Shown piece after piece: positions 6,301-48,906 of a stretch of 60,000 nucleotides of DNA; positions within the stretch are counted from its first letter, which is position 1, and every line of letters starts with the position of its first letter. Origin of the DNA: Amphiscolops sp. MND2022 (Eukaryota). The notes beneath the pieces are model-generated. The model was given only the letters and a program-made list of their open reading frames with translations. It did no database searches and was not told where the DNA came from. The position numbers and the translations under genes were made by a program. The DNA lies in NCBI GenBank assembly GCA_964187785.1, contig OZ076409.1, positions 39,248,001 to 39,308,000 on the forward strand, written 5' to 3'.

Positions 6301-7189
6301 CCATGTTGAGATGGTTGCTAGATGAAGGTGAGTATAATTCAGTAGTTTGATGCTCTTTTTTTTTCTTTTTTTTTCAAACGGAAAGACTGTGAAGCAATTT
6401 GGTCCCTTCATCATCATTTTCATTTTTTTTGTGTAGGTTTTTTCGTTACGGGTGGGGGTCTATTTAGGGTGAATCCTCACTGATGTCGGTTGGGTTTGTT
6501 TGTTTTAGTAGTGGCGTCCTTCCCTCGAGGGTGTACCTATAGTCGGGACCGTGACCTGTGCTTTGAAGTAGAGTTTGTTTCTTTCTTACGACGGGGTCAC
6601 TGCTCTCTCCCAAGGACAGTTGCTGTCCAGTATGAACTTGGTGCGAAGCTGGACGAGTGCTGGGGTGATCGGCGGCGCGAGAAAATTAATGGCCGGGTTC
6701 CTACGTCACTGTGAGACAACGGACATGCAGGTTTCGCGATTGACAGACCCAGAAAGAGGGAGACCCTGGGATCAGCTGCTGAAAGTTGGAGTCGAAGACG
6801 TGTTGTCCCGGTGCTATCAGGTATTCCATGAGGGGACTGTCGAGTCAGCAGGGATCTCCGCGGACGACTACCGGTCTGCAGTGTGTGCACAGTTAAAGAG
6901 CGGTGCCGACGGTGCTAAAGTACAGATCAAAATCCGTTCCCGGAAACTTACGTCTCGTGGTTCTGTTGTTCCGTTTTCCGTCGACGATGATGAGCCGTTG
7001 AGTCGACGTGTCGTCCGGGGTAAAACTCCAAAAGCGCAAAAGGATGTCGGTTTGCCTTCTACCTCACGTGGCAGTAAAGGCAAGAAAGCAACAACGCGTG
7101 CCAAGTCTAAGTCTACCAAGGCGACTAAGAGAGTTGTAAAGCGGAACTTGTCAAGAGTCCTGATGAGTGAGTCCTCGGAGGAGTACTAG
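3384..7189 (+). pseudogene. Antisense spliced cargo gene of element 1, hAT-transposase-like, about 899 aa if repaired; predicted exons 3384-3624, 3844-3969, 4122-4511, 4727-5289, 5449-5944, 6117-6327, 6509-7189
   Basis: Phase-compatible GT..AG introns join consecutive + ORFs; zinc finger ARCLICRVDLSIAGRGLQTLWGHWKGAEH; helix ELVERWDDLAVYF; aligns with the element 2 gene; two frameshifts (7-bp duplication 5545-5558, G-run near 6594). Confidence 0.75.
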
Positions 7190-13622: not shown

Positions 13623-15148
13623 AAGTTTTTTGAATTCTGGTTGAATTCTTCGTTGTAATCCTCGTCGTAACAGTCATTATGTACTTCGGTTTGGTTGGTC
13701 TCACTTGTTGCTTGTGATACCTGGTATTGTGGTTGTTGTCGTGAGTTTTGGGATTGTCGGAAATCTCGTCGGAACTCACGATTCTCCGTTGTGGACTGTT
13801 TTTGATAAGGTACATTCTGGTATGCTGATGCACCTGGGACTCGGTTTCTGCAGTCTCGTGCAGAGTGTCCAACTTTGCCACAGATTTGGCACACTAGCTT
13901 CGAGTTGTATCGGGGTTTGTCAGTCTGAGGCTGCTGGTTGTTATTGTCCTGTTGGGTGCGTTGGTAAGTTTTTGTGTGGATTCCGTTTGCTTCGTCCCGG
14001 AGGCGTTTTCGGCAGTCAATCCACTTATGTCCAACAATGTTGCAGTATCTGCAGTTGCCTTCAAATTTTCGTTTGACCTCTTTGTTGGTGGCAGTTGTTT
14101 GTTGGTTGGTTGGCTGCTTCGCGGGGTAATTCTGGATGTTGTTCAGAGGTTGCATCCCTGCAGGGGTGGGTAGCAGTTGTGCATATTGGCAACGTCTTTG
14201 CACGAAAGTCTTAATTTCCTCGCTGGTCGCATCGTGCTTTCCTGCCATTGCCAGCTCATTCTGGATTTGTATGGGTAATTTGGCAAACAGGAATGTTTCA
14301 GCTATGTCATTGGCTTTGTCACCATACGCCTGTTTTGCTAATTTTTTGAATTTTGTTAGAAAATCGGCAAATGACTCCGTTGTTGGGTCGTACCTCATTT
14401 GATCGAATTTGTACTTCGATACTTCTTTGAGGTCTTCTTTGGCGTATTCCTTGCTGAATGCCTGGAGGATTTCGGTGAGTGTTGTTTCGGTCGTTATCTT
14501 CAGAGTTTGCCAGAAATCGATGGCGTCATCTCTGAGGAGGCTTTGGAAATAATTCAATTTCTGCTCTTCCGTCAGTTTGTGCATATGTGGCCGGAGATGG
14601 TTTTTGAGCAAGTGTTCGAACTCATTGTACTTTTCTCGGTTGCCACGGAATAGAGGGACTTGTGTTTGGAGTATTTTGGGCTGGATCACTCCATCGGTCA
14701 TTGTTGTTCTGAGGTGCTGTATTTCGGTCATGACTTCTCCCATTTGTGGATCAAGTAATGAATGTGGAGTCCTTCTTGGTGGTTGCGTGTTGGGTGTAGG
14801 TGGTGGGTTCGCCAGGACTCCTGTCACCATGTCAGAACGGGCGGACGTCTCTGGGTTAGGCACGTCACGATTGTTCCCTTCCCTACTATTTGATAATCTG
14901 TCAGTAAGGGCTTTCACAATACTAATAAGTTCTCCAATTTGGCGATTCATTTCCAAGAAACGTTGTTCAAATCTATGATTTTCGTGGTCCCTCTCTATCT
15001 CTCTCATGTCATTTTCGAACTCATTTCCCAAGACATTTTCACCGAAATGGTCAGCAACACTCATGTTGTCTTCGTTATAGGAATAACTACTAGTTCCAGA
15101 TTGCTCGATTCTACTTTCTCTGTTAAATCTCGATCGAGTATTTACCAT
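13619..15148 (-). CDS. gag: Gag of element 1 (509 aa), starting inside the 5' LTR
   Basis: Capsid-like region followed by two CCHC knuckles, CRYCNIVGHKWIDC and CQICGKVGHSARDC. Confidence 0.93.
   Translation of the reverse strand: MVNTRSRFNRESRIEQSGTSSYSYNEDNMSVADHFGENVLGNEFENDMREIERDHENHRFEQRFLEMNRQIGELISIVKALTDRLSNSREGNNRDVPNPETSARSDMVTGVLANPPPTPNTQPPRRTPHSLLDPQMGEVMTEIQHLRTTMTDGVIQPKILQTQVPLFRGNREKYNEFEHLLKNHLRPHMHKLTEEQKLNYFQSLLRDDAIDFWQTLKITTETTLTEILQAFSKEYAKEDLKEVSKYKFDQMRYDPTTESFADFLTKFKKLAKQAYGDKANDIAETFLFAKLPIQIQNELAMAGKHDATSEEIKTFVQRRCQYAQLLPTPAGMQPLNNIQNYPAKQPTNQQTTATNKEVKRKFEGNCRYCNIVGHKWIDCRKRLRDEANGIHTKTYQRTQQDNNNQQPQTDKPRYNSKLVCQICGKVGHSARDCRNRVPGASAYQNVPYQKQSTTENREFRRDFRQSQNSRQQPQYQVSQATSETNQTEVHNDCYDEDYNEEFNQNSKNL
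13625..13631 (-). other. Putative -1 ribosomal frameshift heptamer A AAA AAC
   Basis: Lies two codons before the gag stop; the -1 frame is open through to the pol ATG at 13301. Confidence 0.7.
14818..14829 (-). other. Primer-binding site of element 1 (TGGTGACAGGAG)
   Basis: Directly after the 5' LTR, begins TGG (complement of tRNA CCA); identical 12-mer in element 2. Confidence 0.85.
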
Positions 15149-16038
15149 GATTGAAAAGTTATATTTTTAAGCAGTTTGAATTATGAAATGTAAGTTTAAG
15201 AATCAGAATATTGTATAATGCTTGTTAAGGTAACGACTGGATTCTACCGTGGTAAAGTTCTAATTGTTGGATTTTTGAATTGTACTAGCACCTTCAAACT
15301 CGTAATTACTCGTTAATCGCACTTGATTATTTGAGTCTCTTCTCAACTGGTCATTTGGTTAACCTGCTGTTAGCACCTCATGGTACATTTCGTACGACTG
15401 GTCACTTCAGTCGTTGTTAATTACCACTTCGGTACTTCCACTCTATTATCACAGCAGTATGCATCATTTGCCTTGTAACTTCACAGCGCGTACTAATGAT
15501 TGAAGTGCTGAATATAATTACTGCATTTGATCGTCGGTAATATTGCTCTAATTAGCACTGAATACAAATGGACGACTATTGATCGAAGTCGTTGCTGGTA
15601 ATTTCGCAAAGTTTTGGCTGATTGAATATTTATGAACTAAGCGATGCAAAATGACTATTGGTGAACTAAACGATGCTTTAGTAATTGGACTTTTGATGAT
15701 TTAAATATAAAAAACTGCATGTATGTTTAAGTAAAGGTACAACCGGATATGCCAGTCGTTTGTGTAAAGGTTTCATATATTGCACATAAAGTTTGTTGAA
15801 TTCGACTATCTATTTTAGTCGTTATTGCTAAACAGGTGAAAGGAAAATATGTTCATGTAAAATGTGTCGAAGCACACTGGTAGTTTGTGATATTGGTGAA
15901 TTGGGGTGACGACTGCATAGTACAGTCGTCCATTGTATGCATCTACATAAGCTTAAACTGTTTGTGTTTTGAATGTTTCAGTCGGTTGGTGGAGTCTTCA
16001 TTCTTCAGTCGTTATACTTCATACCAACCGGTATGACA
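14830..16038 (-). repeat. 5' LTR of element 1
   Basis: Direct repeat of 1345-2553, TGTCA...TGACA termini. Confidence 0.97.
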
Positions 16039-32951: not shown

Positions 32952-34656
32952 TGTCGTGAGCATTGCGAAATGCGTGGTCACATTGCTCATTAATCAAAGT
33001 CGTTCTAGTCCTTGTATTTTGCTGAACTTCGGAATGATTTTCCGGTCTCTCAACTGGGACCTCCCATCCCCTTCTAGTCTCACGGCCCGATCCGGCCATT
33101 AAGGCGTTTTGAATCTGAGGCAATACTTGACTATTTATAGCTTCATTAATGGCCCTTTGGATCTGTGAGCTAACATTATTGAACATGTCATCCATCTCTC
33201 TTGAGATCCTAGAGTTTAGTTCACTTGACAACCTGTTTATCTCAGCTTGAGAATCTAGGCTTGCTGAGTTATGGCCATAACCGGCACTTGTCCCAATTCC
33301 AAGATTTTCATTTTCTGAATGAAGATTTGTTTCCTCATCTTCCAAATTATTACTTACAATACTATTTTGTCTTCTAATGGAGGTCCCGTTAAGGCTGTTA
33401 TCCCTCCCTGATCCGTTGAAATGATTCTCGCCTAGCATAATATCTAGATTTTCAATGTCTGAGAGAATTTCTAATCCTCTAGATCTTCTTGCCTTCTTTT
33501 GTTTTCTAGTGGTAGGCATCAAGATCGAACCGAGTTGAAATATTGAATTCGTAAACTCAGAAAATTAACAGTGTAACCGTTTTGATGTTTACTAACATGA
33601 ATCAAAATGAAATTGTGTCTTCCCCAAGCGGGGTAATAGTATATATACCGCACGGGGAATGACAAGCACATTCTTTACATGATTAGCAAATCACTTGATT
33701 CCATACCTCACAGGGAAATCCCCGACTAATACATTTTTTAGGGGACAACTTAGGAACGGAATTTACAGACCGTTTATCTAAATACCAACATCAAACAACA
33801 TGTCGGCTAGCATCGTGACAATTATGGTGTAAACAAACTTCACTGCTTACATATTTTACAACTATGCAAGGTGCAGGCACGTGCCGACACACGTTCATTT
33901 CATAGCATCTTCATAAATGGAATGCATTACGGAATTCTAATAATGCAGCTGTATTCTCAAAGCGCTATTTTCAATGTACGCCCGAACAGGGACTAAGTCC
34001 ATAACATGTACAGCACGAATAAGGGGGCATGGAAAAGAGGTTAAATTATCCCCTTTTGTTAGGCAAGCAACAAGATTATTTAAACTACAAATGCGTATTA
34101 AATAGCTCCGGATAAATATTGGCTCATTTAAACAACAAAGGAAATATTATATCAGAATAGGCCGAAACCGGCCACTTGACTAAAGGGCCATTATTAGAAT
34201 AGTACCGTTCAGGCAATAGGCCTTATCCAGCCATTATAAACAAAGCATTTATAATTAGCAACAGGGGAGTGCTGTGATTGGTCAGCGGCCGTACCGAAAG
34301 TCACATCGCCGAGAAGGGACGTTTTCTCACTTGAACACGTTTCCTTCTCGCGATTAACTTGCTTTTGCACTTTACCGCTTTTCACTACAAATTAACACAT
34401 CGTTATACTGCACAGTATCTACATTCTAGTACAACATCCCAATTTGGATTTTCCAAATTGTAATTTAACAGACTAATATAATGCACCAATATATAAAATA
34501 CATCCGATTAACTAGAAAGTTGACAAAAATAATGATCCAATAACTATAAGTTTTAGTCAAAAGAGTTTTAAAATGTTGGAAGTGTACCTGGAGCGATATC
34601 TTGGCCCACTGCTGTAGTCGTTATAGGAGTTCCGTCACAGGCGGCAGCCTGCGACA
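32952..34656 (-). repeat. 3' LTR of element 2
   Basis: Direct repeat of 47202-48906; only two differences noticed. Confidence 0.97.
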
Positions 34657-35347
34657 CTGCGGGTGTTATAAATAAAAAGGCCCCAGCATTCAAACCGTTC
34701 ATATAGGCGTCTCTCCTAATCTGTGTTATGTACTCTGGTTCATCCCGTGATTTGGTCCTTGACACGTACCAGTCGACTTTCTCTCTTTTGATGGCATCTG
34801 CTGAACGTCCGCACACCATGCAGCCCGTGTATAAGCTTTCGCTGACATTTTCGTACGGCAACGTGTTTTGCACGTGATATGACGCGTGAAATCCACCCAT
34901 AGCATACGGCACAATAGGAGTATCTAGGCTCGGTCCCCTCTCGTGAGGTGGGGGAGACATGGGAGATTCTGCCACTGGTATGATGGTATTGCAGATTTCA
35001 ATTCTTGATTTGGTAGACCTTTTCGGCGGGGCATAACACATTTCATGGTCGAAATACTTCGGGCCCAATTTCGGGGTTACATTTGCTTTGGAGCAACTTG
35101 GACCGTCTTCTTCATTGTCGTCTTCGGGCTCTTCTACAGTCATAATTCTTCCCCCAATAAGCATCGGGCTGGCAGTCACCTCTTTCTCAATTCTGGAAAT
35201 CAGCTTTTCAGTATCGGTAGAACAATCGGTCTCCCATTCTGAAGCTTCGCTTTCGTCGCTAGATAGGTAGATCACTGATTCTCCAGACACGTCCGAGTCT
35301 GATTCTTCCAAGTCGAAGAGTCTCTTAGCCAGATTGAATTTATTCAT
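34568..35347 (-). CDS. Extra sense-strand ORF of element 2 (259 aa, unknown function) ending inside the 3' LTR
   Basis: Intact ATG-TAA ORF; acidic N-terminus, CMVC motif; last 89 nt are LTR sequence. Confidence 0.7.
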   Translation of the reverse strand: MNKFNLAKRLFDLEESDSDVSGESVIYLSSDESEASEWETDCSTDTEKLISRIEKEVTASPMLIGGRIMTVEEPEDDNEEDGPSCSKANVTPKLGPKYFDHEMCYAPPKRSTKSRIEICNTIIPVAESPMSPPPHERGPSLDTPIVPYAMGGFHASYHVQNTLPYENVSESLYTGCMVCGRSADAIKREKVDWYVSRTKSRDEPEYITQIRRDAYMNGLNAGAFLFITPAVSQAAACDGTPITTTAVGQDIAPGTLPTF

Positions 35348-35698
35348 TATGAATTTTTTAGCTATTTTGATGAGGATTGAGGCAACTGGTTAGAAGTAAG
35401 ATTCTGAGCTGAATGAATTTATCAGTCTCGGGGTTTTAGCCGAGACGGGCCTTTTCCGAAGTTTCCAATTCGGCGGGAGAAACTTAGGTTGATCATCTCG
35501 ATTCGATGTAAACTTTTATGAATGGAATTCTCAAATGAGCTTACGGCCTTTATTAATTGGTGTTTTACCCCTCATCTCAACAAGCATCAAAGGGGGTGTG
35601 AATAACTCTCAAGTTGTTGACATCAAATATTTCTCTTTCGAGTGGGTAATTAACAACCTGCCTTACAGCAATTAGCGGCGCACGACAAGAAAACTTCC

Positions 35699-36360
35699 CA
35701 AGATGGCTTTAGCCAATCAGAATTAGGCTCTGATAAATTGAAAAATTAAATAATAAAATGGCGAAAATAATAAACCAAAAAATAATTCAAAATGGCGGAT
35801 TTTTAACTAGAAATAACTAAGGAAACTGAACGAAAACAATAGGGTGTAACTGGTCAAACGGCCGGAATAGGCCACTAACTAAGTAGGTCGTAGATAACAA
35901 GGTTTTGTACACTTCGCTGGCAGACTCCATGTACAGAATAAATATGTAAATAATCCCGTAATATTAGTCTGGTAATAATCTTCAGCCACGAACTCCAACT
36001 TCTAATTCTATTACCCCATTTCAATTCCAACTCAATTCCAATTATTTTTCATTTGTAATTTTAATCTTCATCTCCATCTTCATCCTCATTGTCCGCTTTG
36101 TCTTTGTGCCTGTTTCGGACCTTGCCCTGCTTCATCTCCGAGCTCTTCTAATTCCCTTCTTCAACAACGTCCGGATTGGGACTTCGTCCAAAAGGCGCTT
36201 CCAACAGAATGTCTTCAAATACAGGTTGGTTTGATTTCCTTCTATTTTGAACTAGTTCAACTTGATCAGGGTTGAATTTGTTCACAAACTGCTTCCTGTC
36301 TCCACTAGTGAACGCGTGATAAAATCGTTTCACTCAAATTTTCAAAGCACTTCCGGAAGT
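35699..36360. promoter_or_regulatory. Candidate bidirectional promoter between the two accessory genes
   Basis: YY1-like CAAGATGGC, AAAATGGCG and CAAAATGGCGG; AGCCAATCAG CCAAT box; ETS-like ACTTCCGGAAGT just before the 36377 ATG. Confidence 0.45.
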
Positions 36361-36376
36361 TTTCTAATGCGGCGTA

Positions 36377-39300
36377 ATGGATTTCTTTCAAGGAAGCTTA
36401 CCGCCAAATTTCATCCCTTTCTGTTTAGATAACCAGAATCTTGATGAACAACAAGTTCAAACCAGCAACGCAACTGACAATTCTGCTGGGGCTTTTCAAC
36501 GCCCAGTCCCCATTTCCATGTCCGGATATGTTCCTGGGATCAATCCTTCACCGCCTCCTTTTCCTCCGATAAGGACGTTCCTCTCTCAAATGCAACAGTT
36601 GGCCGCTGATTCCCTTTTTAGCAATGAAAGTAACGTTGACGTCACAGCGTATGCAGATGAGATGGTACAACGGATGGAGACTTCGCAGGGGTTAATTGGT
36701 ACAGAACCTGCCAATCTTGAAGAAGAAGAGCCGTCTCTGGCACAAAGCCCAGTTGTCCAAGACGTGGGTCGCGAACCCGTTCAAGTGAGGGCCAGTACTC
36801 CTACCCCACTCGAACAGTCAGGAACAGAAGTCGTTAGCACTTCACAACTTGTGTCTTCGCTGTCAATCGTGCCACAATCACAGTCTGGCTTCCCTGAGCT
36901 GCGCGTTCTTCAGGACCAGACACAAGAGATGTCTGAGGCTTCCTTTTTGCAGTCTGAGGGGAATGTCTCTTCTTCAGTCGCAGAACCTCCTCCACTTCCT
37001 GGGGGAAGAGACCAAACCGAGGACATTGGCGAGTCTAGTGATGTCAATCCAGCTTCAGAAAACGCCAGTCAAGTAGAATATCCCGCACTATACGTCGTTA
37101 ACCCATTCGACTTGGCACAGCAATCAGAGACTGGAGGGGAATCGAGCTCGGAAACTCACGATCCAGGCCAACCGAGCACGTCCAGGGCTGGCCAACCAGG
37201 TCAAAGTGATGTTTTGCGAGATTTGTCAGGGCGAAGTCGAGCCACCTTGAAACAGTACTTTGAGACTGAGGACCCTTACACCTTCCCGGTCGGACAAAGA
37301 GTGGTTGCGTTCACTGAGCCACAAGTTTACCACCTGCTCCGAGTTTTAACTGATGAGGCCATTAGCATGACCTGCTCAACTATGGAGAGGATGGTGATTG
37401 GAGCTGTCAAAGGTACGCCCGCAACTACTCCTTCAAGGACAGACAAATTCCGGACCCGGGCCCGCTCATTCACACCTGACCCCAATACATCTGTCATATC
37501 TGATTCTGAAGGGACTTCGGCCGAATATGGACTAGGATCTGAGTCACGAGCTGACACGAGTCTGTCCCAAGACGTCAGCGGTTTCCTTGATCCCAATGAG
37601 AGCGACAGTGCTACCGAAATGGCTCTCATCAATCAGGCTCTCGGAATTGCAGATTCCAGGGGATCTCCACAAACTCCTCAGCCAACACAGCCGCAAGATT
37701 CTTCTGAGGAGGGAACTGGGACAGGGGAAAAAGATAGCCTCGATATTGCCCTCTCTGAAATCCGGAATGGGACATCCACCCAAAGGTCCCGGAAAGGCAC
37801 CGCAGCTGCTAAATCAGCTAAAGCGAAAAAGACTTCTCGGCGAGGTGTGCCCATGAGAGAAGAGTTCCTCTCTAAAATCAAGTGGACGAGATCTTTCATC
37901 TCTGGACCTTCTGATCCCTTGCACAATCCATATATGGTATGGTGCCATATGTGTAAGAAGAACTTCAGTGTGAAAACAAAAGGCGCCGTTGAGATCCTAC
38001 GCCATCACAGGACTGAAAAACATCTACGTCGGGACCAGAGATGGAGGTACGAGCACCTCAAAACAGTAGATCACGTATCTGGAAAAGTACAACATCGTGT
38101 CAGGGGGAGGAATGGCAAGATCCTCAGCAAGAAAGAACTCGCTGATGAGTTGCCCAAATTTATACACACAGAGCTCGTCGACGCTGGGGAAAGAAATCCG
38201 TTTTATGAGGATTACCTTCAAGGCCACACTACTGCTCCCATCTCTCCACAGTCTCGATTGCGCACGCAGATATGTCTCTTGGGCGACTTTGTTCAGAGTT
38301 CAGGAGATCTGGGACTGCTTCGAAAATTGTGGGCAAGAGTTGGAAGTTATACTGAGTTTCGAACAGCCTTCCAGGACTTCAATTGGAATGAAGACCACAT
38401 CATGGTAAGATTTCTCAGATGTTTTCCAAAAGGTTGAGCTAGGGGGTAGAGAAGGACCGGGAAAGTGACGACATGTTGTCCATCTAATTTTGTTCCGTTT
38501 CAGGCCATCTTCCAACACGTCTTCAACTGTCTAATGGGGGACATAGCTGACCAGGTCTCCGCCTCCCAGCATTTCGGCGTTGAATTTGAGAAGAGAGGGG
38601 CCAACCGCCACATGTCTCTGCGATTCTGGAAAGGGACGAAACTCTGCCGGGTGTTCATCTGCAGAAGTAGTCTTGCTGGCGCTGGACTGACCGAGGAACT
38701 GGGCTCCCTAGCACGGCTGCTGTCCGTTGTGTCGACTGCTCCTGACGTAGTTGCCATCTCAGGTTGCGCTGTGGACCTGATCAGGACTGTGGACCAACAC
38801 CCATCTTACCCGCGAGGAGTGCAGAGCTGCTTTCGCTTTGAGTTGCTTGATCTGCGCACACTGATGCATAAGAAGAGTTACAGTGTGTTTGGCAACATCG
38901 ACATGTTTTCAGTCCTCCAAAGCCTCTTAGTCTCACTTGGAGGAAGTTTGTCTGAAGACTGGGTCACAGAGTCCCCTGATCTTGTCCGGGTGAGTCTAGT
39001 TTGTATATTTGATTTACATTACACTGGTGGGGAGGTGGTAAGCAGTCTCAGTTGAGATTTCAACCCTGAGGATTACTTTGTTTAGGCAATCACCACCTGC
39101 AAATTGGAAGTAGAGAAGATTCCTGAGCTTTGCCGGATTTTGTCAAAGAAGTGGAAAACAATCCTCCGCTACCTCACAATCCACTCACCACGTCAAGAGA
39201 ACCAGGGCGTGCACAACAAGGTTATGGACTTCAAATGGCATTTCCTTTACATAAAGAAAATGTTGTAGTTGCTCATCTTGCATTGTCGTTGGTGGGTAAG

Positions 39301-40649
39301 TCCAAAGGTGTTCACTCTGCTTCTTTCCTAGGTCCAGAGCTTCGAATGGTCCCTCATTGTGGACGACTTCTTTGCAGTCAAATTGGAGTTTTTCCAACGA
39401 TTGGTCAACGATTGTGAGTATTCTTAATCCACCAAGGTCCCTTTGGTCCGTTGTCCTTATAAGGATCGTTGATTTGTGAATTTCAGATGTCATCAGCTTC
39501 GCCACCCATTTGAGTCAGAGACGTGATGCCTCCTTCTTCCTTTGCGGCGAGGTCTGCAAATACATCAACCGCCTCTGCTCTCGTATCTTTCAGCCTGATA
39601 CCGTGCCACTGGAGAATGCCTGGTTCTTATTGATGGATTTCCAGATGAACCAGGGCAAGTTCATGGAAGACGAGGACTTTCTGGTGCGTCTCAAGATCTC
39701 TGGCAAAGTCACTTCGGCGAGTAACCTGAAAGCAGCTGGCCTCCACTTTAACAAGAAGTCGAGTAAGGCAGCCATCAGTAAGACCGCTGATCAGGCCAAG
39801 TCAGATTTTGTGGCGAGCGCCAGAAGTTACGTCAAGTTCCTGTTGTCACAAGTCCTCCAGCATACCGAACTCAGTTCTGATCTCATCAAAGGGTTGGCAG
39901 CGTTCGACCCATACATCCTCTTCAAAAGACCAGTGGAAGTTGCCCTACGACATTTTGATTGCTTGTACTCCACGTTCCAGTTGCGTTTCTGGGTCTCCGA
40001 GTTCAATGAGTCAGCCTGCCGAGACGAGTACGTAGCCCTATTGGACTACCTCAGGAACAACCATTCCGCTGAATTTAGTGCTGCCAATGATTCCCCTGAT
40101 CTCATTGATTTCTTCATGAGTTTGGAATTCCTTCAGTCTCGAGATCATCTTTGTTATTTGTTCAAGCTAAGCTGCCTTTGTATAACAACTGTCAGTCCTG
40201 AGTATCCTCCCGTTTCCTTTGGAAGAATCAATGCAGCCATGCTTCAGTCTCGTTTGGTAGACGTGATTTTACCCTGCCAGAGTTATTTATCTTCTGATCC
40301 TGATTCCTTGTTGGCCTGCTGCACTGAATCCCAGCTTGAGAGGTTCCAGCAGTTGTCTTCTACTTTCGGGCAATCCGCTTTCGCTGCCGATTATGACCCT
40401 TGGCCTTTTGTAGACGGTTTTGGTCGAACTGCTATCTACAAGTCCCTTGTCGCTTCCCACCGTTCTGTGCTCTCTGGGTCAGAATTCCAGTTCCGTAGTC
40501 CCACTCTTGCTGATACTTCTTCCGTCAAAGATGCTCCTGCCTACAGACTGCCTAGTGACAGTAAGAGAAGACGAATGGAGAGGGCCGTTTCTCGTTCTAC
40601 GGCTTCATCTGTTGGCGACGAATCCTCAGCTAGTAGCCCTAAAGACTAA
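36377..40649 (+). CDS. Antisense spliced cargo gene of element 2, hAT-transposase-like, about 1297 aa; predicted exons 36377-38404, 38504-38989, 39086-39220, 39332-39413, 39487-40649
   Basis: Four 73-111-bp GT-AG introns give one uninterrupted 3894-nt ORF; zinc finger VWCHMCKKNFSVKTKGAVEILRHHRTEKH; RNase-H-like strands; RILSKKWKTILRYL helix; C-terminal HLCYLFKLSCLC helix. Confidence 0.82.
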
Positions 40650-40880: not shown

Positions 40881-43800
40881 CTAGTATCTATAGTCTTCTG
40901 AGTAGTTCGGGTTGGGGTTAGGCCTGAGGTTATATTTTCCTCCTCTAGGGCTCAGGCTTTCATTTCTAGTATCGTTTTCAGATATTTCGGGCACGATAAT
41001 ATCATCCCCCCTGCTAGGAGAATTTTGTAGGTCAGTATCATTTGTTGAATTGTTCTCTGAAATGATCTTGTCTTTTTTGAGGTCATTTCCTGTATTCGGC
41101 GAATGTGTTTCGTTAGCGTTCGGTATTCCGGCCTCGTTCGGCCAATCAGATTCCTCATTCGATGCTTCTTCGGTGACGTCATTACTTGTCGTTACGTCGT
41201 GACGTAAGCGGCCATTCTGGCTGTGCACCGCGTTGTCATTATTCGTTGCTTCTCGCGTGATTATATAATCCGCGTTATTGTCGTTTGCGTCATTGTTAAT
41301 TTCTGCCGTACTCGGCTGTTCGCCATTCGGGAAATTAGTCGGAATAGGCTCGTTGCCTCGCGTAACCAGCTGCTCACCAAAGTCGGTTTCCCACGTTATG
41401 ACGTATAAGTCATCTTGTGGAATGACAATTTCTTCGTCTGGCTGTAGCCGTTGTTCTCGGAAATTGTCCTCAAGCGGTTGATTGGGAACAAACTTTTTCA
41501 GGCGAATTCGATGCAAAATCTGAGTTTTATTTGTATTAATCCGTCGTACGATGTAATTTTCATTTGGTAAGACTTTCTGGACTACAAATGGTCCAACCCA
41601 ACGATAATCGCGGAATGGGATTTTCGATCCTTGATGATCCGCTTTCGGCTGTAAGACAAAACAGAATTCATTCTCCTTCAATGGAGCAGCTTTTGCTTTG
41701 CGGTCATAATATTCCTTGTCTTTGATATATGACTGCATAATATTTTGCTTCGTTTTGTCTATTAGGGTTTTCGTCCTGTTCTGGATTTCTTCAGCAAATT
41801 CGGTTGTAGGGCTGATCTTTTCGTTTGGATTATTTCCAAGCTTGTGATCTAGAATATTGTAGGGAATTCGGCCATGGAATACCCTCGTTGGTTCACAACC
41901 GATGCTGGCATGGTAACTGGTATTATGATTAAGCACTGCTAATGGCAAATATTTGTGCCATTGTCGGCGGTATTCTCCACATGCCATTTTGAGATTTGTC
42001 TTTAAGGAGGCATGGGTCCGCTCCAATTTCCCAATTGTTTGCGGGTGTTTCGTTGTCGCACATTTGAGTGTAATTCCCAAAACTTGCGTGACTTCCGTAA
42101 TAATTGTAGAAGTAAATGCAGTACCTTTATCAGTGATAAGCGTTGTTGGTAAGTACGCATGTTTTGTCATGATATCAATGAGCGCTTTTGCTACATTGAT
42201 CGCTGATGCATCCGTAAGTGGATAGGCAAACAAATATCTAGAAAATACATCAATTGCCGTTAGGACGTTTTCATATCCTCCACTTGGGGGAAGATTCGGC
42301 AATAGGTCAATTTGCATGGCGTCTTCAGGTCCAAGGTCCCATTCGGGCAAATTTAGTAGTTCAGGCGTGATCGTTGCATTAGGGACTCTTTTGTCTCTGG
42401 CGCATTGTTCACACCCTTCTACCCATTTTTTGACGTGTTTAGCCATGTTAGGGTAGTAATACCGTTGTCTAATGTCCTGCAACATTTTTGAAATCCCGGG
42501 ATGTTTATGCGCTGTCCCGTGAAGGGATTGAAGCAATTCCCGGAGTAAGTGTTGCGGGAGTAAAATTTGATGGTATTTCACATTCCCTGTTTCGTCAAAA
42601 TATTGCCTCGTCAGGATTTCGTCCTTGAGTACAATTCGTTCCAGATTGTTTGCGTAGTGTCTATATCGGGCATCCTGTTGCAGTATGTTTTCCGAATAGT
42701 CTTCATGAAGGAGTTTCGCCCTCAATTGTTGTAATACTGCGTCCTTGGACTGTTCAATAATAATTTGGTTAGTTTTCTTCAGTCGGACTTGTATGTCTAG
42801 TTGTTGTTTCACTAGGTTCGTTGACAGAGTTTCTATTGTAATAGTGGGCTCATCAGTCATTGGGTTTTTCCTGATTGCTTCTTTTCTTGCCCAATAATGT
42901 TCCTCTGTCTCGTCGTCATCATTCGTATAGAATATCTGCTCTTCCTGTGATACCCCCGCAGATTGGACATTTATCTCAATGGGTAATGTTTGCACATCTT
43001 CCCGGATTTTCATGACCAATTTGTCCTTCGGGTCTGCCTCCAATCGGGACAGATAATCTGCGGCTGTATTTTGTGCCCCCGGAATATGCGCTATGACGAA
43101 ATTAAACTGAATCACATAATCACACGCATTCCAGAGTGCTGGGGGTATAATTTTCGTCTGGAAAAATCTTGTTACAGCCTTATTGTCAGTAAGGATTATG
43201 ACCGGTTTGGGCGTACCCCAAAATATATGCCCAAATTCTTTGAATGCAAAGTAAATTGCTAGGAACTCCTTGGCGTATATTGACATCTTGATTTGAGCTG
43301 GGGTGAAGGTTTTTGAGCCATATGCCACCGGTGCATAGGATTTTCGAAGAGAAGTAAATTTCTGGTTTGGGTCATCTTCTATGAGTACTGCATACCCAGC
43401 TGCACCAAAACTTGCATCAGTCATTAGTGCAATCTGCTTGTTTGGAATGGGTTGTTGTAAGGCCAAGTCGCAGCATTTGTCGAGTGCTTTATTGATTTCT
43501 TCAAATTGTTGGACTAATTCTTTCGATACTAGGATCTTTTCGTCACTTTTCAGCATCTTGTAGAATGGGGCAAGGCGTTCTGAGAGTCTTGGGACATAGT
43601 TTCTATAGTAATTCAAGAATCCCAAATAACGTTGTAAAGCCTTTTTCGACTTCGGGAATTTGGTCTTTTCCAGAAAGTTTTGAACGTTTTGCTTTTGGGG
43701 TTTAACGCCTTGTGGAGTAATTGTTCGTCCAAGAAAATCAATTTCTTTGGCACCAAAATGACATTTGTGCATGGTTAACTTAAGGCCTGCTTCCTGTATG

Positions 43801-46080
43801 CATTTGAATGTTGCTCTCAGGTTCGTCATGAGGTGGTCGACATCATTGGCTGCGATGCCGATATCGTCCACGTACTGGGCACATTGATCCGCTTTAATGA
43901 CCTTGTCGAGGTATTCCCTCATGAAACTCGAGAATGCGGATAGTGACCGACTAAGGCCTTGTGCCAAACGTCTGTACGCAAATGTACGACTGGCAAAATT
44001 GAAAGCCAACATTTCGATTGAACGTTGGTCGGCCATTGGTAGGCAGTGATATGCCTGAGAACAATCCAATTTGCAAAAGAGTTTCTTGCCTGCCATGTGT
44101 TGGGCAGCATCAACCAGGGTGCTAACAGGATGGTTATTGTTAATGTAATCATCAGAGATTAGGTTGTTGATTTTTCTCAAGTCAACCAAAAGTCGTAGCT
44201 TCCCGTTTGGCTTCTTTTGGGCAAATATTGGGCTTGCATACTTTGAGAACGGTAGTGTAGTTATGATGCCATATTTGTGTAACATGGCCAATTCGACTAG
44301 AATATCCTCCTTCAGGTTAATAGGCGCTGGAAGACTTTGACTATAGGCTGGGGAATCGTCCTTGGGCGTCAATTTGACTTTGAATTCCTCATTCATGCCT
44401 ATATCAAACCGGTGTCGAGCAAATATATCGTGGAATTCTACTAATAGTTCCTCTATTTTCTCCTGCTCTTCAGTATTGAGGGTAGAATCTCTCCAATCAA
44501 AATTTTCTAGGAATTTGGCGCGCGATTCTTCGTCTTTCGTGGGGTCGAGTGTCTCCAGTTCCTGTAAGGCCTGTAATTCTCGGAGGATTCGTTTCTGGAT
44601 GGGTGTATGTTCCTCAGGATTTCCAGGATTCTCTGGGGTCGGGAACCAATAGTTTTCAGAATTTTGCGGGTTTTTGTTGGTCTTGATGAGACTGCTGACA
44701 TAGTGGGCTGCTTGCTCTTGGTCATTTTGTAAAAGGTGCCAGGTTGATGCCGGGTCTACCGGTTTGACGTATTTCATTTGTTCTGGGGTCATGACTGAGA
44801 AACTAGCAATATGGAGTCCCTTTTTAAGTTTATAAGGGTGATCTGTGAAGTTATTCACTGGTATCATTATATTGCCGTCATGCAAGGTGACCAAGGCTGG
44901 ACAGAATGTGATATCACCTTCTTCATGGAGAAGGTCGCTTGGTTGTAAGATCCCCGTGACAGCATTCTCAGGGTACAATAGGGAATTGGTCCTAATTAGG
45001 ACTCTGTCATTTGGCGGAATGGTGATCTCATTAGGGTTGAGAATCGGCTCTAATACATTTGAGTATTTGTGATCAGCTGTTTTGAGCTGCATCGAAAAGA
45101 ACGGGAAGTTCAGTATCCCTTGTCTCATGTCCAAGACTGTATGATTTCTCTGAAGGAACATTAGTCCAATGATCGGACCCGTCAGATGTTCCATGACTAT
45201 AAATATTTCATGAAATTCAATGTCGCCAACTTCAAATTTAAGTTCTATAGTACTTTTGGGCGTTTCCAGCTGCCCATTAGCGACCATGATCTGGAAATTC
45301 GGTGGCGGACCTTCTCGGATAACAGATTGTGGAGATAAGAGACGAATTTTCCGGTGGTCCATTTCTGGAATTGCACTGGACTGAGCTCCAGTGTCAATGA
45401 GTCCATCTATGGTCAACTCCCCAAAGTCCATGGGGAAGTACAACATGCGCTTCTTGCATTTGAGGTTGATGTTGGTCGACAAGGGTATACAGTCTGGTTC
45501 ACCGTCTCTGGTGATTAGGACGTTCTGGAACTGCTTCTCGTCTAATAGTGATTGTGGTGTAGATTCAGAGTTGTCCTCATGGGCCTCGGTCCCCAATGGG
45601 TTCGGGAACACTGGGTGATTCGTGCCATCATTCATCTGCCAGTTTTCAACTAGTGCTCTGGTCTTTTTATTGTGGGTATTTGGAGGGTTCTCGTGGACTG
45701 TTCTGTTGTAGTGCTCGATGTCGTCTAAGACATATTGGAATTGTAGTAGTTCCTGGTTGTAGATCTCTGAGTCCCAATAGGGATCTCTGCCATAATCTGG
45801 ATCTATGTAGGTAGGATTGTAATTGTCAACCAGGGGAATGGGCCTGAATCGGGTAGTGAAGGTAGTAGTGTAATCAGGATCCCAAACAGGAATTGGTTTT
45901 TGGAACAAATGGGTATTGTTATATGTAATGGTTACTGCTTTGTCCATCTGTTGCTGCCAGACAACAGAGGGGTAGCCCATCAATTGTTGGTTATATTGGT
46001 GGAAAGTTTTTATTGGAGGATCCGACCTGATGTATTGGATACGGATATGAGTTCGTTGTATTGGAGTCGTGGCGAAGTTA
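40881..46080 (-). CDS. pol: Pol polyprotein of element 2 (uninterrupted)
   Basis: LIDTGA, YVDD, TDAS...ADYLSR, HHCC and DDE integrase, VGPF motif. Confidence 0.96.
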
Positions 46081-47769
46081 GTTTTTTGACTCATCATTGG
46101 AAGATGAGGCCTGCGAATTGGAAGATGTTGTTCTATTTTGTGGTTTCTGCGCCTTTGAGTTGGGTTTACTATCATTGGCGTCATCTGGTCTGGTGCGTTT
46201 AGGTTTAAGATGCACACCGGCGCCTTGCCAACATCTTTCCTCGGGGTGGTTCTTTTTACCACAAGTACCACACTCCGGATACGTCTTTTTCTGAGTCTGT
46301 TTGCCTTGTTGGGCATCTTTTTCTTTTTTCTTCTTCAACTTTTCGCAGTCTTTGACCATATGGCCCTTCTCCTTGCAATAGTTGCAAGTGATATCTGACA
46401 TTTGCCTAGTAGTTAGAGGAGTCTTGGATTTTGTCGAGGAGGTCATTGTGGCCATTGGTAGGTCGTCTGATTCCTCTAGTGCATTGAGTTCTAATTCTCT
46501 CTCTAAATGAGCAACTATTTCGTCATAAGAGCCATTTTCTAGTCTGGCCATGTTGACATACCGTTTCAGTTTTGGTGGCAGCTTTGCGTAGAGCAAGCTG
46601 TCAATCATTTTCTGCGCGTGATCTCCAAATGCTTTTTCTGCCCCTTGATTTAATTCTTCAAGGAAATCTGGTAGTTTCATCGTATTGGGATCAAAGACCA
46701 GGCGATGCCATTTATGTTTGGCAGTCGCTTGTGATTCGGGCTTGACGTATTTTCGTCTGAATATTACCAATACATCTTCTAAAGTCTGTCTATTGCTCGA
46801 AATGATGTTCCGGAAAGTTTGGAGAGCGTTCTTCCTCAGCAGTGAGTGGAAGTGATTTATTTTCATCTGTTCCGTCATTTCCGGTTGCATCTTGATCATC
46901 GTGTGGAACAGGTCCTCAAACAGCTCGAATTTTTCGCTCTTGCCATCAAAAGTCATTGTGTTCGAGTTGACTGGGCGTATAGTGAGTTGTTGGGCTGTCG
47001 GCCTATTCTGCATCGTTGTCAAGACATCTGCTAGTCGAGTAATAGGGTCAGTTTGAGCAGCCGGAGCATTTCTCTCTTGCGCTGGGGTCGTCGTGTCAAG
47101 GTTGATGTCCTCATAGGACTTGTCGAGATGGTTTCTGGATGAGACTCGTCCCGTGAGGAACTCAGGAACTTGAGGTGGAGATTCGTTGTCTCCTGTCACC
47201 ATGTCGTGAGCATTGCGAAATGCGTGGTCACATTGCTCATTAATCAAAGTCGTTCTAGTCCTTGTATTTTGCTGAACTTCGGAATGATTTTCCGGTCTCT
47301 CAACTGGGACCTCCCATCCCCTTCTAGTCTCACGGCCCGATCCGGCCATTAAGGCGTTTTGAATCTGAGGCAATACTTGACTATTTATAGCTTCATTAAT
47401 GGCCCTTTGGATCTATGAGCTAACATTATTGAACATGTCATCCATCTCTCTTGAGATCCTAGAGTTTAGTTCACTTGACAACCTGTTTATCTCAGCTTGA
47501 GAATCTAGGCTTGCTGAGTTATGGCCATAACCGGCACTTGTCCCAATTCCAAGATTTTCATTTTCTGAATGAAGATTTGTTTCCTCATCTTCCAAATTAT
47601 TACTTACAATACTATTTTGTCTTCTAATGGAGGTCCCGTTAAGGCTGTTATCCCTCCCTGATCCGTTGAAATGATTCTCGCCTAGCATAATATCTAGATT
47701 TTCAATGTCTGAGAGAATTTCTAATCCTCTAGATCTTCTTGCCTTCTTTTGTTTTCTAGTGGTAGGCAT
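46078..47769 (-). CDS. gag: Gag of element 2, starting in the 5' LTR; nonsense codon at 47413-47415
   Basis: CNYCKEKGHMVKDC and CGTCGKKNHPEERC knuckles; the 3' LTR copy has CAG where the 5' LTR has TAG. Confidence 0.92.
47190..47201 (-). other. Primer-binding site of element 2 (TGGTGACAGGAG)
   Basis: Adjacent to the 5' LTR; same 12-mer as element 1. Confidence 0.85.
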
Positions 47770-48906
47770 CAAGATCGAACCGAGTTGAAATATTGAATTC
47801 GTAAACTCAGAAAATTAACAGTGTAACCGTTTTGATGTTTACTAACATGAATCAAAATGAAATTGTGTCTTCCCCAAGCGGGGTAATAGTATATATACCG
47901 CACGGGGAATGACAAGCACATTCTTTACATGATTAGCAAATCACTTGATTCCATACCTCACAGGGAAATCCCCGACTAATACATTTTTTAGGGGACAACT
48001 TAGGAACGGAATTTACAGACCGTTTATCTAAATACCAACATCAAACAACATGTCGGCTAGCATCGTGACAATTATGGTGTAAACAAACTTCACTGCTTAC
48101 ATATTTTACAACTATGCAAGGTGCAGGCACGTGCCGACACACGTTCATTTCATAGCATCTTCATAAATGGAATGCATTACGGAATTCTAATAATGCAGCT
48201 GTATTCTCAAAGCGCTATTTTCAATGTACGCCCGAACAGGGACTAAGTCCATAACATGTACAGCACGAATAAGGGGGCATGGAAAAGAGGTTAAATTATC
48301 CCCTTTTGTTAGGCAAGCAACAAGATTATTTAAACTACAAATGCGTATTAAATAGCTCCGGATAAATATTGGCTCATTTAAACAACAAAGGAAATATTAT
48401 ATCAGAATAGGCCGAAACCGGCCACTTGACTAAAGGGCCATTATTAGAATAGTACCGTTCAGGCAATAGGCCTTATCCGGCCATTATAAACAAAGCATTT
48501 ATAATTAGCAACAGGGGAGTGCTGTGATTGGTCAGCGGCCGTACCGAAAGTCACATCGCCGAGAAGGGACGTTTTCTCACTTGAACACGTTTCCTTCTCG
48601 CGATTAACTTGCTTTTGCACTTTACCGCTTTTCACTACAAATTAACACATCGTTATACTGCACAGTATCTACATTCTAGTACAACATCCCAATTTGGATT
48701 TTCCAAATTGTAATTTAACAGACTAATATAATGCACCAATATATAAAATACATCCGATTAACTAGAAAGTTGACAAAAATAATGATCCAATAACTATAAG
48801 TTTTAGTCAAAAGAGTTTTAAAATGTTGGAAGTGTACCTGGAGCGATATCTTGGCCCACTGCTGTAGTCGTTATAGGAGTTCCGTCACAGGCGGCAGCCT
48901 GCGACA
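47202..48906 (-). repeat. 5' LTR of element 2
   Basis: Direct repeat of 32952-34656. Confidence 0.97.

What the first reader, a model, noticed from the sequence alone, without database searches (positions are those of the whole stretch)
36377..40649. Gypsy retrotransposons carrying an intron-containing antisense gene derived from a hAT transposase
Seen: between pol and the 3' LTR, element 2 encodes on the opposite strand a five-exon gene that splices with canonical GT-AG sites into one open 1297-aa frame. Element 1 has a homolog at the same location (3384-7189). Established: a W...CxxC-x11-H-x5-H finger followed by hydrophobic strands, an R.L..W..L..Y[FL] helix and a C-terminal L.KL..C helix is the layout of hAT / ZNF862-type transposases. 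Inference: the catalytic hallmarks (first Asp, CxxH, TRW, ERxFS), all visible in the true hAT at 21760-23723, are eroded. The protein may therefore be a DNA-binding accessory factor (regulator, targeting or anti-silencing) domesticated by the retrotransposon rather than by the host. Antisense orientation would explain why introns survive reverse transcription. Antisense extra ORFs are known in plant Tat/Retand elements, but I know of no spliced hAT-derived one in an animal Gypsy.
Basis: partly seen in the sequence, partly recalled or inferred. Interest (0 to 1): 0.95.

Follow-up and report, generated by a model that had tools for sequence, protein, structure and literature searches.

The report
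Spliced antisense gene in Gypsy retrotransposon
A young, highly repeated Gypsy-type retrotransposon carries a real five-exon gene on the strand opposite its own genes; it encodes a large zinc-finger protein that is kept by strong selection and weakly resembles a disabled hAT DNA-transposase, so one kind of jumping gene may have tamed another.

Summary
Element 2 is an intact LTR retrotransposon on the minus strand. Its LTRs are 1705 bp with 2 differences, and it has a 5-bp duplication, gag, and pol in the order PR-RT-RH-IN. Between pol and the 3' LTR, five plus-strand exons with GT-AG borders join into an open 1297-codon frame.

The gene is real and belongs to the element:
- 11 of 11 fetched copies from three subfamilies have it beside pol.
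- Between the most distant subfamilies the introns have decayed to 44-71% identity, against 67-88% for the exons.
- 94 of 96 splice dinucleotides are kept.
- dN/dS is 0.04-0.10 in the folded parts.

Element 1 (pol 42% identical) carries a gene that is detectably related only around the zinc finger. The function is inferred to be a DNA-binding accessory factor. No RNA data could be obtained. I rate it a new variant of the known antisense accessory genes of plant and fungal Gypsy elements.

The parts
32952..34656 (-). 3' LTR of element 2 (1705 bp, TG..CA); 5-bp target duplication CCAAT at 32947-32951
   Evidence: self-BLAST; ends, duplication and 2 differences in 1705 between the LTRs
47202..48906 (-). 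5' LTR of element 2; duplication CCAAT at 48907-48911; primer-binding site TGGTGACAGGAG just inside (read on the minus strand)
46078..47412 (-). gag frame (stop to stop) with a zinc knuckle and a weak DUF1759 match
   Evidence: Pfam zf-CCHC E 0.0022, DUF1759 E 1.1e-5
40881..46334 (-). pol frame, 1817 aa: protease, reverse transcriptase, RNase H, integrase
   Evidence: Pfam RVT_1 1e-22, RT_RNaseH 1.3e-15, Integrase_H2C2 1e-16, rve 1.2e-10
36377..38404 (+). Exon 1 of the antisense gene (aa 1-676). It holds a mostly low-complexity N-terminal part with one conserved block (aa 283-358, nt 37223-37450), a basic stretch (37787-37846), the C2H2 finger (37940-38023) and about 125 conserved residues after it.
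   Evidence: dN/dS 0.13-0.22 (aa 1-480) and 0.05-0.06 (aa 481-676)
38405..38503 (+). intron 1 (99 nt, GT..AG)
   Evidence: 46-57% identical to the distant subfamily copies, against 71-77% for the flanking exons
38504..38989 (+). Exon 2 (aa 677-838). Predicted strand-strand-strand-helix-strand order, the part that would be the RNase H-like core if the protein is hAT-derived.
   Evidence: dN/dS 0.04-0.10; AF2 model of low confidence, pLDDT 39.7
38990..39085 (+). intron 2 (96 nt)
39086..39220 (+). exon 3 (aa 839-883)
39221..39331 (+). intron 3 (111 nt)
   Evidence: 44-49% identical to the distant subfamily copies
39332..39413 (+). exon 4 (82 nt)
39414..39486 (+). intron 4 (73 nt)
39487..40649 (+). 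Exon 5 (aa 911-1297). An all-helical domain (model residues 11-235 at pLDDT about 90), then a disordered tail with KRRR (from 40563) and the stop codon.
35913..35999 (+). Blocks conserved in all 12 copies upstream of the gene: TTCGCTGGCAGACTCCATGTACAG, an A/T-rich TATA-like run, and CTTCAGCCACGAACTCCAAC. Candidate internal promoter of the antisense gene (inferred).
   Evidence: alignment of 12 copies from three subfamilies; coordinates
36349..36372 (+). ACTTCCGGAAGTTTTCTAATGCGG, invariant in 12 of 12 copies, 5-28 nt before the ATG. The palindrome CTTCCGGAAG resembles an ETS site (recalled, not tested).
34568..35389 (-). ORFx, a further conserved frame (273 aa, acidic and Ser-rich start). It is in the sense of the element, head to head with the antisense gene, and runs into the 3' LTR.
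   Evidence: at least 141 scored genomic matches at 70-100% identity, 131 of 141 without a stop; no Pfam family
1345..16038 (-). Element 1, a second family of the same clade. LTRs 1345-2553 and 14830-16038 (12 differences in 1209), duplication CTCTG, the same primer-binding site, pol 42% identical to that of element 2.
4660..5298 (+). Zinc-finger frame of element 1's antisense gene (finger at 4837-4917), the only part with a detectable relation to the gene of element 2.
   Evidence: at least 150 scored genomic matches at 60-100% identity, 128 of 150 without a stop; BLASTP E 2e-6 to P0353; hhalign E 6.6e-4

Best explanation
Element 2 is a young, autonomous Ty3/Gypsy-type LTR retrotransposon, and the related element 1 is another. 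Besides gag and pol, element 2 carries an accessory gene of its own. The gene sits between pol and the 3' LTR and is read from the opposite strand, probably from an internal promoter. It has four spliceosomal introns. These survive retrotransposition because they lie in the wrong orientation in the element's genomic RNA.

The gene encodes a 1297-aa protein with these parts in order:
- a long disordered N-terminal part;
- basic, nuclear-localisation-like stretches;
- a BED-like C2H2 zinc finger;
- a roughly 700-aa body whose layout, and the weak structural likeness of its last domain to Hermes, suggest descent from a hAT-superfamily transposase that no longer shows the DDE, CxxH or ERxFS motifs.

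I think it most likely works as a sequence-specific DNA-binding factor that serves the element. My first choice is a regulator of the element's own transcription or chromatin state, as host-domesticated hAT/BED proteins do.

Shown: the gene is real, it is spliced by sequence criteria, it is co-inherited with the element, and it is under strong purifying selection. Inferred: the hAT ancestry (my odds are about 0.6), the loss of catalysis, the nuclear DNA-binding role and the regulatory mechanism.
For: Gene model and splice sites.

The gene is part of the element:
- 11 of 11 fetched copies have it next to pol on the other strand. The copies were picked from the 106 scored matches: one at 99%, three at about 87% and seven at about 78% identity.
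- No flanking inverted repeats.
- The element is intact, with 5-bp duplications.

The introns are real:
- Against the seven copies of the distant subfamily they are 44-71% identical, while the exons are 67-88%.
- 94 of 96 GT/AG dinucleotides are kept.
- A protein from another assembly (P0374) reads through an intron of another length at the same place.

Selection: dN/dS is 0.04-0.10 for exons 1C, 2 and 5 and 0.13-0.22 for the N-terminal part, with dS from 0.7 to saturated.

Size and diversity of the family:
- At least 106 genomic matches, 96 without a stop.
- 184 and 174 database relatives.
- 649 clusters at 50% identity with E<=1e-3.

hAT likeness:
- ESM Atlas, exon 5: 23 of 30 hits in Dimer_Tnp_hAT clusters, scores 0.92.
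- ESM Atlas, finger to exon 2: DUF659, DUF4371, ZBED1_RNase-like and zf-BED clusters at 0.79-0.83.
- The predicted secondary structure of exon 2 runs helix, three strands, helix, strand, strand, helix, which is the order of an RNase H-like core (low confidence).

Conserved non-coding blocks lie upstream of the ATG.
Against: - No sequence-based method links the protein to hAT. Pfam is negative at E up to 10, apart from zf-BED at E 4.1 in 1 of 24 members. PDB profile searches are negative. hhalign against hAT C-terminal alignments from this genome, and against the window's own hAT remnant, gives probabilities of 0.7% or less.
- Foldseek finds nothing for the exon-5 model (best E 1.2).
- The ESM scores are leads only. 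The recognition value of exon 5 was 1885, below the 2300 that most known families reach.
- The exon-2 model has pLDDT 39.7, and its fold searches are uninformative.
- No RNA run could be listed, so splicing and expression are not shown by reads.
- Nothing tests DNA binding or any effect on the element.
Confidence: 0.55

Rival explanations
1. The gene is equally real and element-borne, but the protein is not hAT-derived. It is a lineage-specific zinc-finger protein of unknown ancestry, and the likeness to hAT is the common look of a C2H2 finger followed by a helical domain.
Against: Three separate weak signals agree, and in the right order along the protein: the N-terminal part looks like the hAT finger and RNase-like families, and the C-terminal part looks like the hAT dimerisation region and the C-terminal half of Hermes. 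Hermes is the only long match (about 180 residues, against 45-90 for most other rows) and ranks first in two searches with two different entries. The window's own true hAT remnant is also missed by Pfam at E<=1, so a Pfam blank is weak evidence.
Confidence: 0.3
2. The protein is an integration-targeting or tethering factor. Its dead-transposase DNA-binding body would recognise particular DNA or chromatin and hold the element's integrase complex there. It would not act as a transcription regulator.
For: The gene is the most diverged module between subfamilies: exon 5 is 73-86% identical in DNA where pol RT-RH is 88-91%. That would fit a specificity determinant. Its place next to the integrase end of pol, and its strong selection, fit a role in the replication cycle. 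All of this is inference only.
Against: No test of binding to integrase was run. I did not look for an insertion-site preference. The 5-bp duplications (CCAAT, CTCTG) show nothing in common.
Confidence: 0.2
3. The protein is still an active nuclease or transposase with non-canonical catalytic residues, and it gives the element a second, DNA-based way to move or to process its DNA.
For: Acidic residues are conserved where the strands of the presumed core lie: invariant E27 and D81, and nearly invariant E29 and D91, of exon 2. dN/dS is as low as for an enzyme.
Against: No recognisable DDE, CxxH or ERxFS motifs where a hAT alignment by eye would put them (against the true hAT). The copies are bounded by LTRs with 5-bp duplications, not by inverted repeats with 8-bp duplications.
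Confidence: 0.05
4. The gene is a passenger. It is either a hAT-like DNA transposon or a host gene that once landed in one Gypsy copy and has since been copied passively.
For: Nested insertions are common in this window. For example, a hAT remnant lies inside a Tc1-like remnant.
Against: - No terminal inverted repeats or 8-bp duplication around it.
- It is present at the same place in 11 of 11 copies from three subfamilies, and a distant relative of its finger exon is at the same place in element 1, whose pol is only 42% identical.
- A dN/dS of 0.04-0.10 at saturated dS cannot arise by passive copying.
Confidence: 0.03

Closest known systems
brtn, the additional antisense gene of Boty-like Ty3/Gypsy elements of Botrytis cinerea (Zhao et al. 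2011, Virology 417:248). I saw this only as a reference in PMC7264820 and in earlier notes of this scan; the paper itself was not read.
   Same: An extra gene between pol and the 3' LTR of a Gypsy element, read from the opposite strand. Earlier notes of this scan describe spliced, cysteine-rich antisense genes at this place in fungal chromoviruses.
   Different: The host is a fungus. By those notes the protein is small, a six-cysteine cluster plus a helix. Here the protein is 1297 aa from five exons, with a C2H2 BED-like finger and a hAT-like body. No sequence relation was tested.
Antisense additional ORFs (aORF-3R) of plant Gypsy lineages: Tat, Retand, Grande, RIRE2 (Vicient and Casacuberta 2020, PMC7264820, section 7 read; Retand 2025, PMC11963269, search listing only)
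   Same: The same position and orientation, function unknown. The review says some of these proteins are nuclear and proposes a regulatory role like that of retroviral accessory proteins.
   Different: Plant elements. The review states that no clear similarity to other proteins is known, apart from an SMC domain and a 'transposase 28' domain in Retand ORF4. It mentions no introns: 'intron' occurs 0 times in its text. Here there are four conserved introns and a hAT-like layout.
Host-domesticated hAT transposases with BED fingers (ZBED family, DAYSLEEPER and the like; recalled, no call)
   Same: A finger followed by a hAT-type body that has lost catalytic motifs and serves as a DNA-binding regulator. 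This is what the protein here would work like.
   Different: Those are single-copy host genes kept by host-level selection. This gene is multi-copy (at least 106 scored matches), sits inside a retrotransposon and is kept by selection on the element. Membership of hAT is not established here.
Sense-strand ORF3s of animal LTR retrotransposons, e.g. env-like, GDSL esterase, DEDDy exonuclease in bdelloid rotifers (PMC5408684; abstract and passages read)
   Same: Animal LTR elements that capture extra genes of varied origin downstream of pol.
   Different: Those lie downstream of pol, and the paper says ORF3s are typically expressed from spliced messages. The word 'antisense' occurs once in that paper (on small RNAs) and 'intron' not at all. 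None is transposase-like.
Antisense genes of retroviruses such as HBZ of HTLV-1 (recalled, no call)
   Same: A regulator encoded on the minus strand near the 3' LTR, partly spliced, acting on the element's own transcription.
   Different: HBZ is a small bZIP protein of an exogenous vertebrate retrovirus. No sequence or fold relation is expected.

Membership tests
Ty3/Gypsy (Metaviridae) LTR retrotransposon | Two LTRs with TG..CA ends and a short target duplication | tested here: met
   1705-bp LTRs with 2 differences, TG..CA ends, 5-bp CCAAT duplication. Element 1: 1209-bp LTRs, CTCTG.
Ty3/Gypsy (Metaviridae) LTR retrotransposon | pol domain order PR-RT-RNase H-IN with Gypsy-type RNase H and an H2C2 integrase finger | tested here: met
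   Pfam positions 302-396 (PR), 707-872 (RT), 941-1062 (RH), 1260-1431 (IN); the same order in element 1.
Ty3/Gypsy (Metaviridae) LTR retrotransposon | RT groups with Gypsy rather than Bel/Pao or retroviruses in a tree | not tested
   No reference RT set was at hand. Gag gives a weak DUF1759 match (E 1.1e-5), a family I recall from Bel/Pao gag, so the clade is left open.
hAT transposase superfamily | Significant sequence or profile match to hAT families (Dimer_Tnp_hAT, the RNase-like N-terminal families) | tested here: not met
   Pfam negative for all exons and for 36, 38 and 24 family members. hhalign probability 0.7% or less against hAT alignments of this genome and the window's hAT. Caveat: the window's own hAT remnant is also missed by Pfam.
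hAT transposase superfamily | RNase H-like catalytic core interrupted by a large helical insertion domain (the Hermes fold) | tested here: inconclusive
hAT transposase superfamily | DDE triad with CxxH and the C-terminal ERxFS block | tested here: inconclusive
   None of these motifs is seen in the translations, whereas the true hAT at 21619-23793 shows them. Without a reliable alignment the equivalent positions cannot be fixed.
hAT transposase superfamily | Terminal inverted repeats and an 8-bp target duplication around the unit | tested here: not met
   No inverted pair brackets 36377-40649. This is expected if the protein is a domesticated derivative and not a transposon.
BED-type zinc finger | C-x2-C, a long spacer, H-x3-5-H, with a profile match | tested here: inconclusive
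   The spacing C-x2-C-x16-H-H-x4-H fits. Pfam zf-BED reaches only E 4.1 in 1 of 24 members, while Zn_ribbon_19 is the commoner weak hit (16 of 24, best E 0.014).
Antisense additional ORF of LTR retrotransposons (aORF-3R class) | A conserved coding frame between pol and the 3' LTR on the opposite strand, shared by copies of the family | tested here: met

The most novel reading that the evidence does not exclude
A whole clade of animal Gypsy retrotransposons has tamed a hAT DNA-transposase for its own use. It keeps the gene, with introns and its own promoter, as a catalytically dead, sequence-specific DNA-binding factor. This gene is the fastest-diverging, recombining module of the element and sets subfamily-specific recognition, either of the element's own control region or of integration targets. 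That would be domestication of one mobile element by another rather than by the host.
Probability: 0.4. Interest if true: 0.85.

Novelty: new variant of a known kind. Interest (0 to 1): 0.72.

Why it matters
Transposase domestication is known as something hosts do. A retrotransposon that keeps a transposase-like DNA-binding protein under selection would show that mobile elements recruit each other's parts. It would also give a handle on what antisense accessory genes of LTR elements do, which the plant review calls unclear (PMC7264820, section 7).

The case is unusually tractable:
- The genome holds many young, intact copies in several diverged subfamilies, each with its own version of the protein.
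- Binding sites, specificity and the effect on transcription or integration could therefore be compared within one genome.

It also matters for annotation. Gene finders will call thousands of such five-exon 'genes' as host genes.

Tried and rejected
- RNA evidence: the look-up of sequencing runs listed no RNA holder for 36300-40700. No RNA holder was listed, which says nothing on expression.
After that, later genome searches were run with loci=0. As a result full-length hAT references and copies of element 1 and of ORFx could not be fetched.
- Longer annotated proteins: none scored among 4320 candidates, so no spliced full-length protein was available to fold.
- Folding: the spliced protein cannot be handed to the fold tool, so single exons were folded. 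An alignment that mixed exon-1 and exon-2 pieces was misaligned and dropped (A4 and A6).
- Sequence searches against solved structures with profiles A1, A2 and A4 gave nothing but a chance-level CBX5 row, E 0.79.
- hhalign of the exon-2, exon-1C and exon-5 profiles against element 1's other frames gave nothing. Protein comparison A7 against 5354-5980 was uninformative, because the long row set the columns.
- Element 1 gene model: a heuristic GT-AG path search found a 7-intron, 784-aa open path, but only with relaxed thresholds. It is unverified and could be chance.
- Homodimer test of the exon-5 domain with complex prediction: the queue was full, and the hand-ins were not sent on. The job was never queued.
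- Tandem repeats in the LTR and upstream region, sought as possible binding arrays: only two trivial rows. The bacterial promoter scan is irrelevant here.
- Earlier notes of this scan: none for this genome or this protein.
- Literature: five full-text searches found no report of a hAT-like or spliced antisense gene in an animal Gypsy element. The library lacks most subscription journals and Repbase.
Full report
**What is there**

The window holds two intact LTR retrotransposons on the minus strand.

Element 2:
- It spans 32952-48906, with 1705-bp LTRs that differ at 2 positions.
- It has TG..CA ends, a 5-bp target duplication (CCAAT) and the primer-binding site TGGTGACAGGAG.
- Its gag frame is at 47412..46078.
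- Its 1817-aa pol frame, at 46334..40881, gives Pfam matches in the order protease, reverse transcriptase, RNase H, integrase.

Element 1:
- It spans 1345-16038, with 1209-bp LTRs that differ at 12 positions and the duplication CTCTG.
- It has the same primer-binding site and a pol that is 42% identical over 1344 aa.
- The two elements share no DNA similarity detectable by BLASTN.

**The observation**

On the plus strand between pol and the 3' LTR of element 2 lie five exons: 36377-38404, 38504-38989, 39086-39220, 39332-39413 and 39487-40649.
- Each is bordered by GT..AG with a pyrimidine-rich acceptor.
- Together they make 3894 nt, which is 1297 codons and a stop.
- Left unspliced, each frame runs into a stop in the next intron, in this copy and in all 11 others examined.
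- One correction: the finger is C-x2-C-x16-H-H-x4-H (aa 523-549), not x11.

**Is it a real gene of the element?**

Yes, on four counts.

1. Abundance and intactness. The last exon has at least 106 scored matches in the 1.07-Gb genome, out of 7921 first-look candidates. They fall into groups at about 99, 87 and 78% protein identity, and 96 of 106 have no stop.

2. Linkage. I fetched 11 of these copies: one at 99%, three at about 87% and seven at about 78%. All 11 have the whole gene lying tail to tail with pol on the other strand. No inverted repeats bracket the gene.

3. Introns behave as introns.
   - Against the seven distant copies the four introns are 44-71% identical in DNA, while the exons are 67-88%.
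   - 94 of 96 GT/AG dinucleotides are kept.
   - A database protein from another assembly (P0374) reads through an intron of different length at exactly the exon 1/2 junction.

4. Selection.
   - Between subfamilies, dN/dS is 0.05-0.06 for the finger region, 0.04-0.10 for exon 2 and 0.04-0.09 for exon 5.
   - It is 0.13-0.22 for the disordered N-terminal 480 aa.
   - Synonymous sites run from 0.7 to saturation.
   - Pol of the same copies has dN 0.01-0.05 and dS 0.1-1.4.

The family is also large outside this genome's close copies:
- 184 and 174 relatives in the 5.8-billion-protein set;
- 649 clusters at 50% identity with E<=1e-3;
- all are unnamed single-exon frames without Pfam domains.

**Surroundings**

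Upstream of the ATG several blocks are invariant or nearly so in all 12 copies, although the sequence between them has diverged beyond alignment:
- 35913-35954 (with an A/T-rich, TATA-like run) and 35980-35999;
- a possible 5'-UTR donor at about 36224/36225;
- ACTTCCGGAAGTTTTCTAATGCGG at 36349-36372.

I read these as an internal promoter and leader for the antisense gene. This is inference.

Head to head with the gene lies a further frame in the sense of the element, ORFx (35389..34568, 273 aa).
- It is also conserved: at least 141 scored matches at 70-100% identity, 131 of them without a stop.
- It matches no Pfam family.

**Element 1**

Its plus-strand frame 4660-5298 carries a similar finger (4837-4917). 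It is conserved in at least 150 scored copies at 60-100% identity, 128 without a stop.

It is related to the finger region of the element 2 family:
- BLASTP to P0353 gives 25% identity over 134 aa, E 2e-6 for the single comparison.
- phmmer hits only the exon-1 family among 393 stored proteins, best E 7.8e-4.
- hhalign gives E 6.6e-4.

The other frames of element 1 give no signal with tblastn, HMMs or hhalign. A spliced open path exists, but only under relaxed rules, and it is unverified. So the 'homolog at the same location' is supported for one exon only. Even so, an antisense finger gene seems to be ancestral to a clade whose pol genes are 42% identical.

**What is the protein?**

Sequence methods are silent:
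- no Pfam family for any exon, or for 36, 38 and 24 family members, even at lax thresholds;
- no PDB sequence match;
- no hhalign match to hAT C-terminal alignments that I built from this genome's own hAT copies, or to the degraded hAT in the window.

As a caution on those blanks, that degraded hAT plainly shows LSFDKW, CLCH, ATRWNS and SERLFS, yet it is also missed by Pfam at E<=1.

Three weaker lines point to hAT, and they agree in order along the protein:
- ESM-Atlas look-alikes of exon 5 are mostly clusters carrying Dimer_Tnp_hAT (23 of 30 hits, 0.92), and one cluster carries FAM200-GTF2IRD2-like.
- Look-alikes of the finger-to-exon-2 part are clusters with DUF659, DUF4371, ZBED1_RNase-like and zf-BED at 0.79-0.83.

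Exon 2 should hold the RNase H-like strands. Folded alone it reached only pLDDT 39.7. Its secondary-structure order (helix, three strands, helix, strand, strand, helix) fits, but the fold searches are meaningless.

By eye, exon 2 and the C-terminal helices line up with hAT blocks, with the catalytic D, CxxH and ERxFS replaced. That is a resemblance, not a test.

I put hAT descent at about 0.6.

**How it probably works**

- Introns persist because the genomic RNA that is reverse-transcribed is the complement of the gene's pre-mRNA, so the spliceosome does not see them. This follows from the established replication mode of LTR elements.
- The protein has basic stretches before the finger and a KRRR tail, a finger and a conserved globular body.
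- By analogy with host-domesticated hAT/BED proteins (recalled), I take it to be a nuclear, sequence-specific DNA-binding factor that serves the element. Most likely it regulates the element's own transcription or chromatin.
- Integration targeting is the main rival.

In favour of some specificity role:
- The gene is the most diverged module between subfamilies: exon 5 is 73-86% identical in DNA where RT-RH is 88-91%.
- The copies are mosaics. For example, L038 and L039 are 96-97% identical to L031 and L032 in the protease region but 73-74% in the gene.

So cargo and pol trees will not be congruent within this genome, through recombination rather than repeated capture.

**Comparison with what is known**

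- Antisense extra genes between pol and the 3' LTR are known in plant Tat, Retand and Grande elements. The review I read says they have no clear similarity to known proteins and an unknown, possibly regulatory, role (PMC7264820, section 7).
- They are also known in fungal Boty elements (brtn). I saw that reference only in a reference list. Earlier notes of this scan describe spliced cysteine-rich antisense genes in fungal chromoviruses.
- The extra genes of animal LTR elements that I could find are ORF3s downstream of pol, which that paper says are typically expressed from spliced messages (bdelloid rotifers, PMC5408684).
- Five full-text searches found no hAT-like or spliced antisense gene in an animal Gypsy element. 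The library lacks most subscription journals and Repbase, so this absence is soft.
- The host looks like an animal: a LINE with PHD, endonuclease and RT frames, Tc1-like and hAT remnants, and short GT-AG introns. I did not establish this.

**Verdict**

This is a real and well-conserved accessory gene of a retrotransposon, a new variant of a known kind. hAT ancestry is plausible but unproven, and the function is untested.

Noticed in passing
window 34568-35389 (-): ORFx is a 273-aa frame in the sense of element 2, just before and running into the 3' LTR, head to head with the antisense gene. It has at least 141 scored genomic matches at 70-100% identity, 131 of them without a stop. It matches no Pfam family. 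Its start is acidic and Ser-rich (…VIYLSSDESE…). It may be a second accessory gene, perhaps expressed from a spliced sense message. Element 1 has no room for it (about 830 nt).
   Followed up: partly
L031-L041 against window 36377-45800: The copies are recombination mosaics. L038 and L039 are 96-97% identical to L031 and L032 in the protease region, 97% identical to L034 in RT-RH, and only 73-74% and 82% identical to them in the antisense gene. The accessory gene is the most diverged module of the element.
   Followed up: partly
window 35701-35800: Three A(A/G)ATGGC(G) motifs within 100 bp lie in the region between ORFx and the antisense gene. The last is kept in the five copies that reach that far (L037-L041). 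They look like YY1-type sites (recalled), which would suit a divergent promoter.
   Followed up: no
window 21075-24392: A degraded, frame-shifted hAT (21619-23793, +) shows LSFDKW, CLCH, ATRWNS and SERLFS. It lies between two pieces of a Tc1/mariner-like transposase on the minus strand (21075-21428 and 23937-24392; HTH_Tnp_Tc3_2 E 1.4e-4), so it looks like a nested insertion. Pfam misses this hAT at E<=1.
   Followed up: partly
window 25832-32067 (+): A non-LTR retrotransposon with frames for a PHD finger (26551-27771), an endonuclease (27761-29083) and a reverse transcriptase (29041-29982). It ends near the 3' LTR of element 2.
   Followed up: no
window 9288-9293 (-): Pol of element 1 is split by one in-frame stop. 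The frames 13673..9291 and 9290..8679 abut, and the second continues the integrase C-terminus. So this copy has either a nonsense mutation or a read-through site.
   Followed up: no
window 47160-47201 and 14790-14829 (-): Both elements share the primer-binding site TGGTGACAGGAG, although pol is only 42% identical and the LTRs are unrelated. I did not identify the tRNA.
   Followed up: no
exon 5, aa about 1200-1240 (window about 40360-40480): The conserved block YDPW..VD.FGR..IY..L gave a chance-level match (E 0.79) to the end of the chromodomain of CBX5 in the PDB profile search. This is probably noise.
   Followed up: no
window 38405-39331: Introns 1-3 are each a multiple of three (99, 96, 111 nt), yet all carry in-frame stops in the 12 copies checked. 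In another assembly one natural frame (P0374) reads through intron 1.
   Followed up: partly
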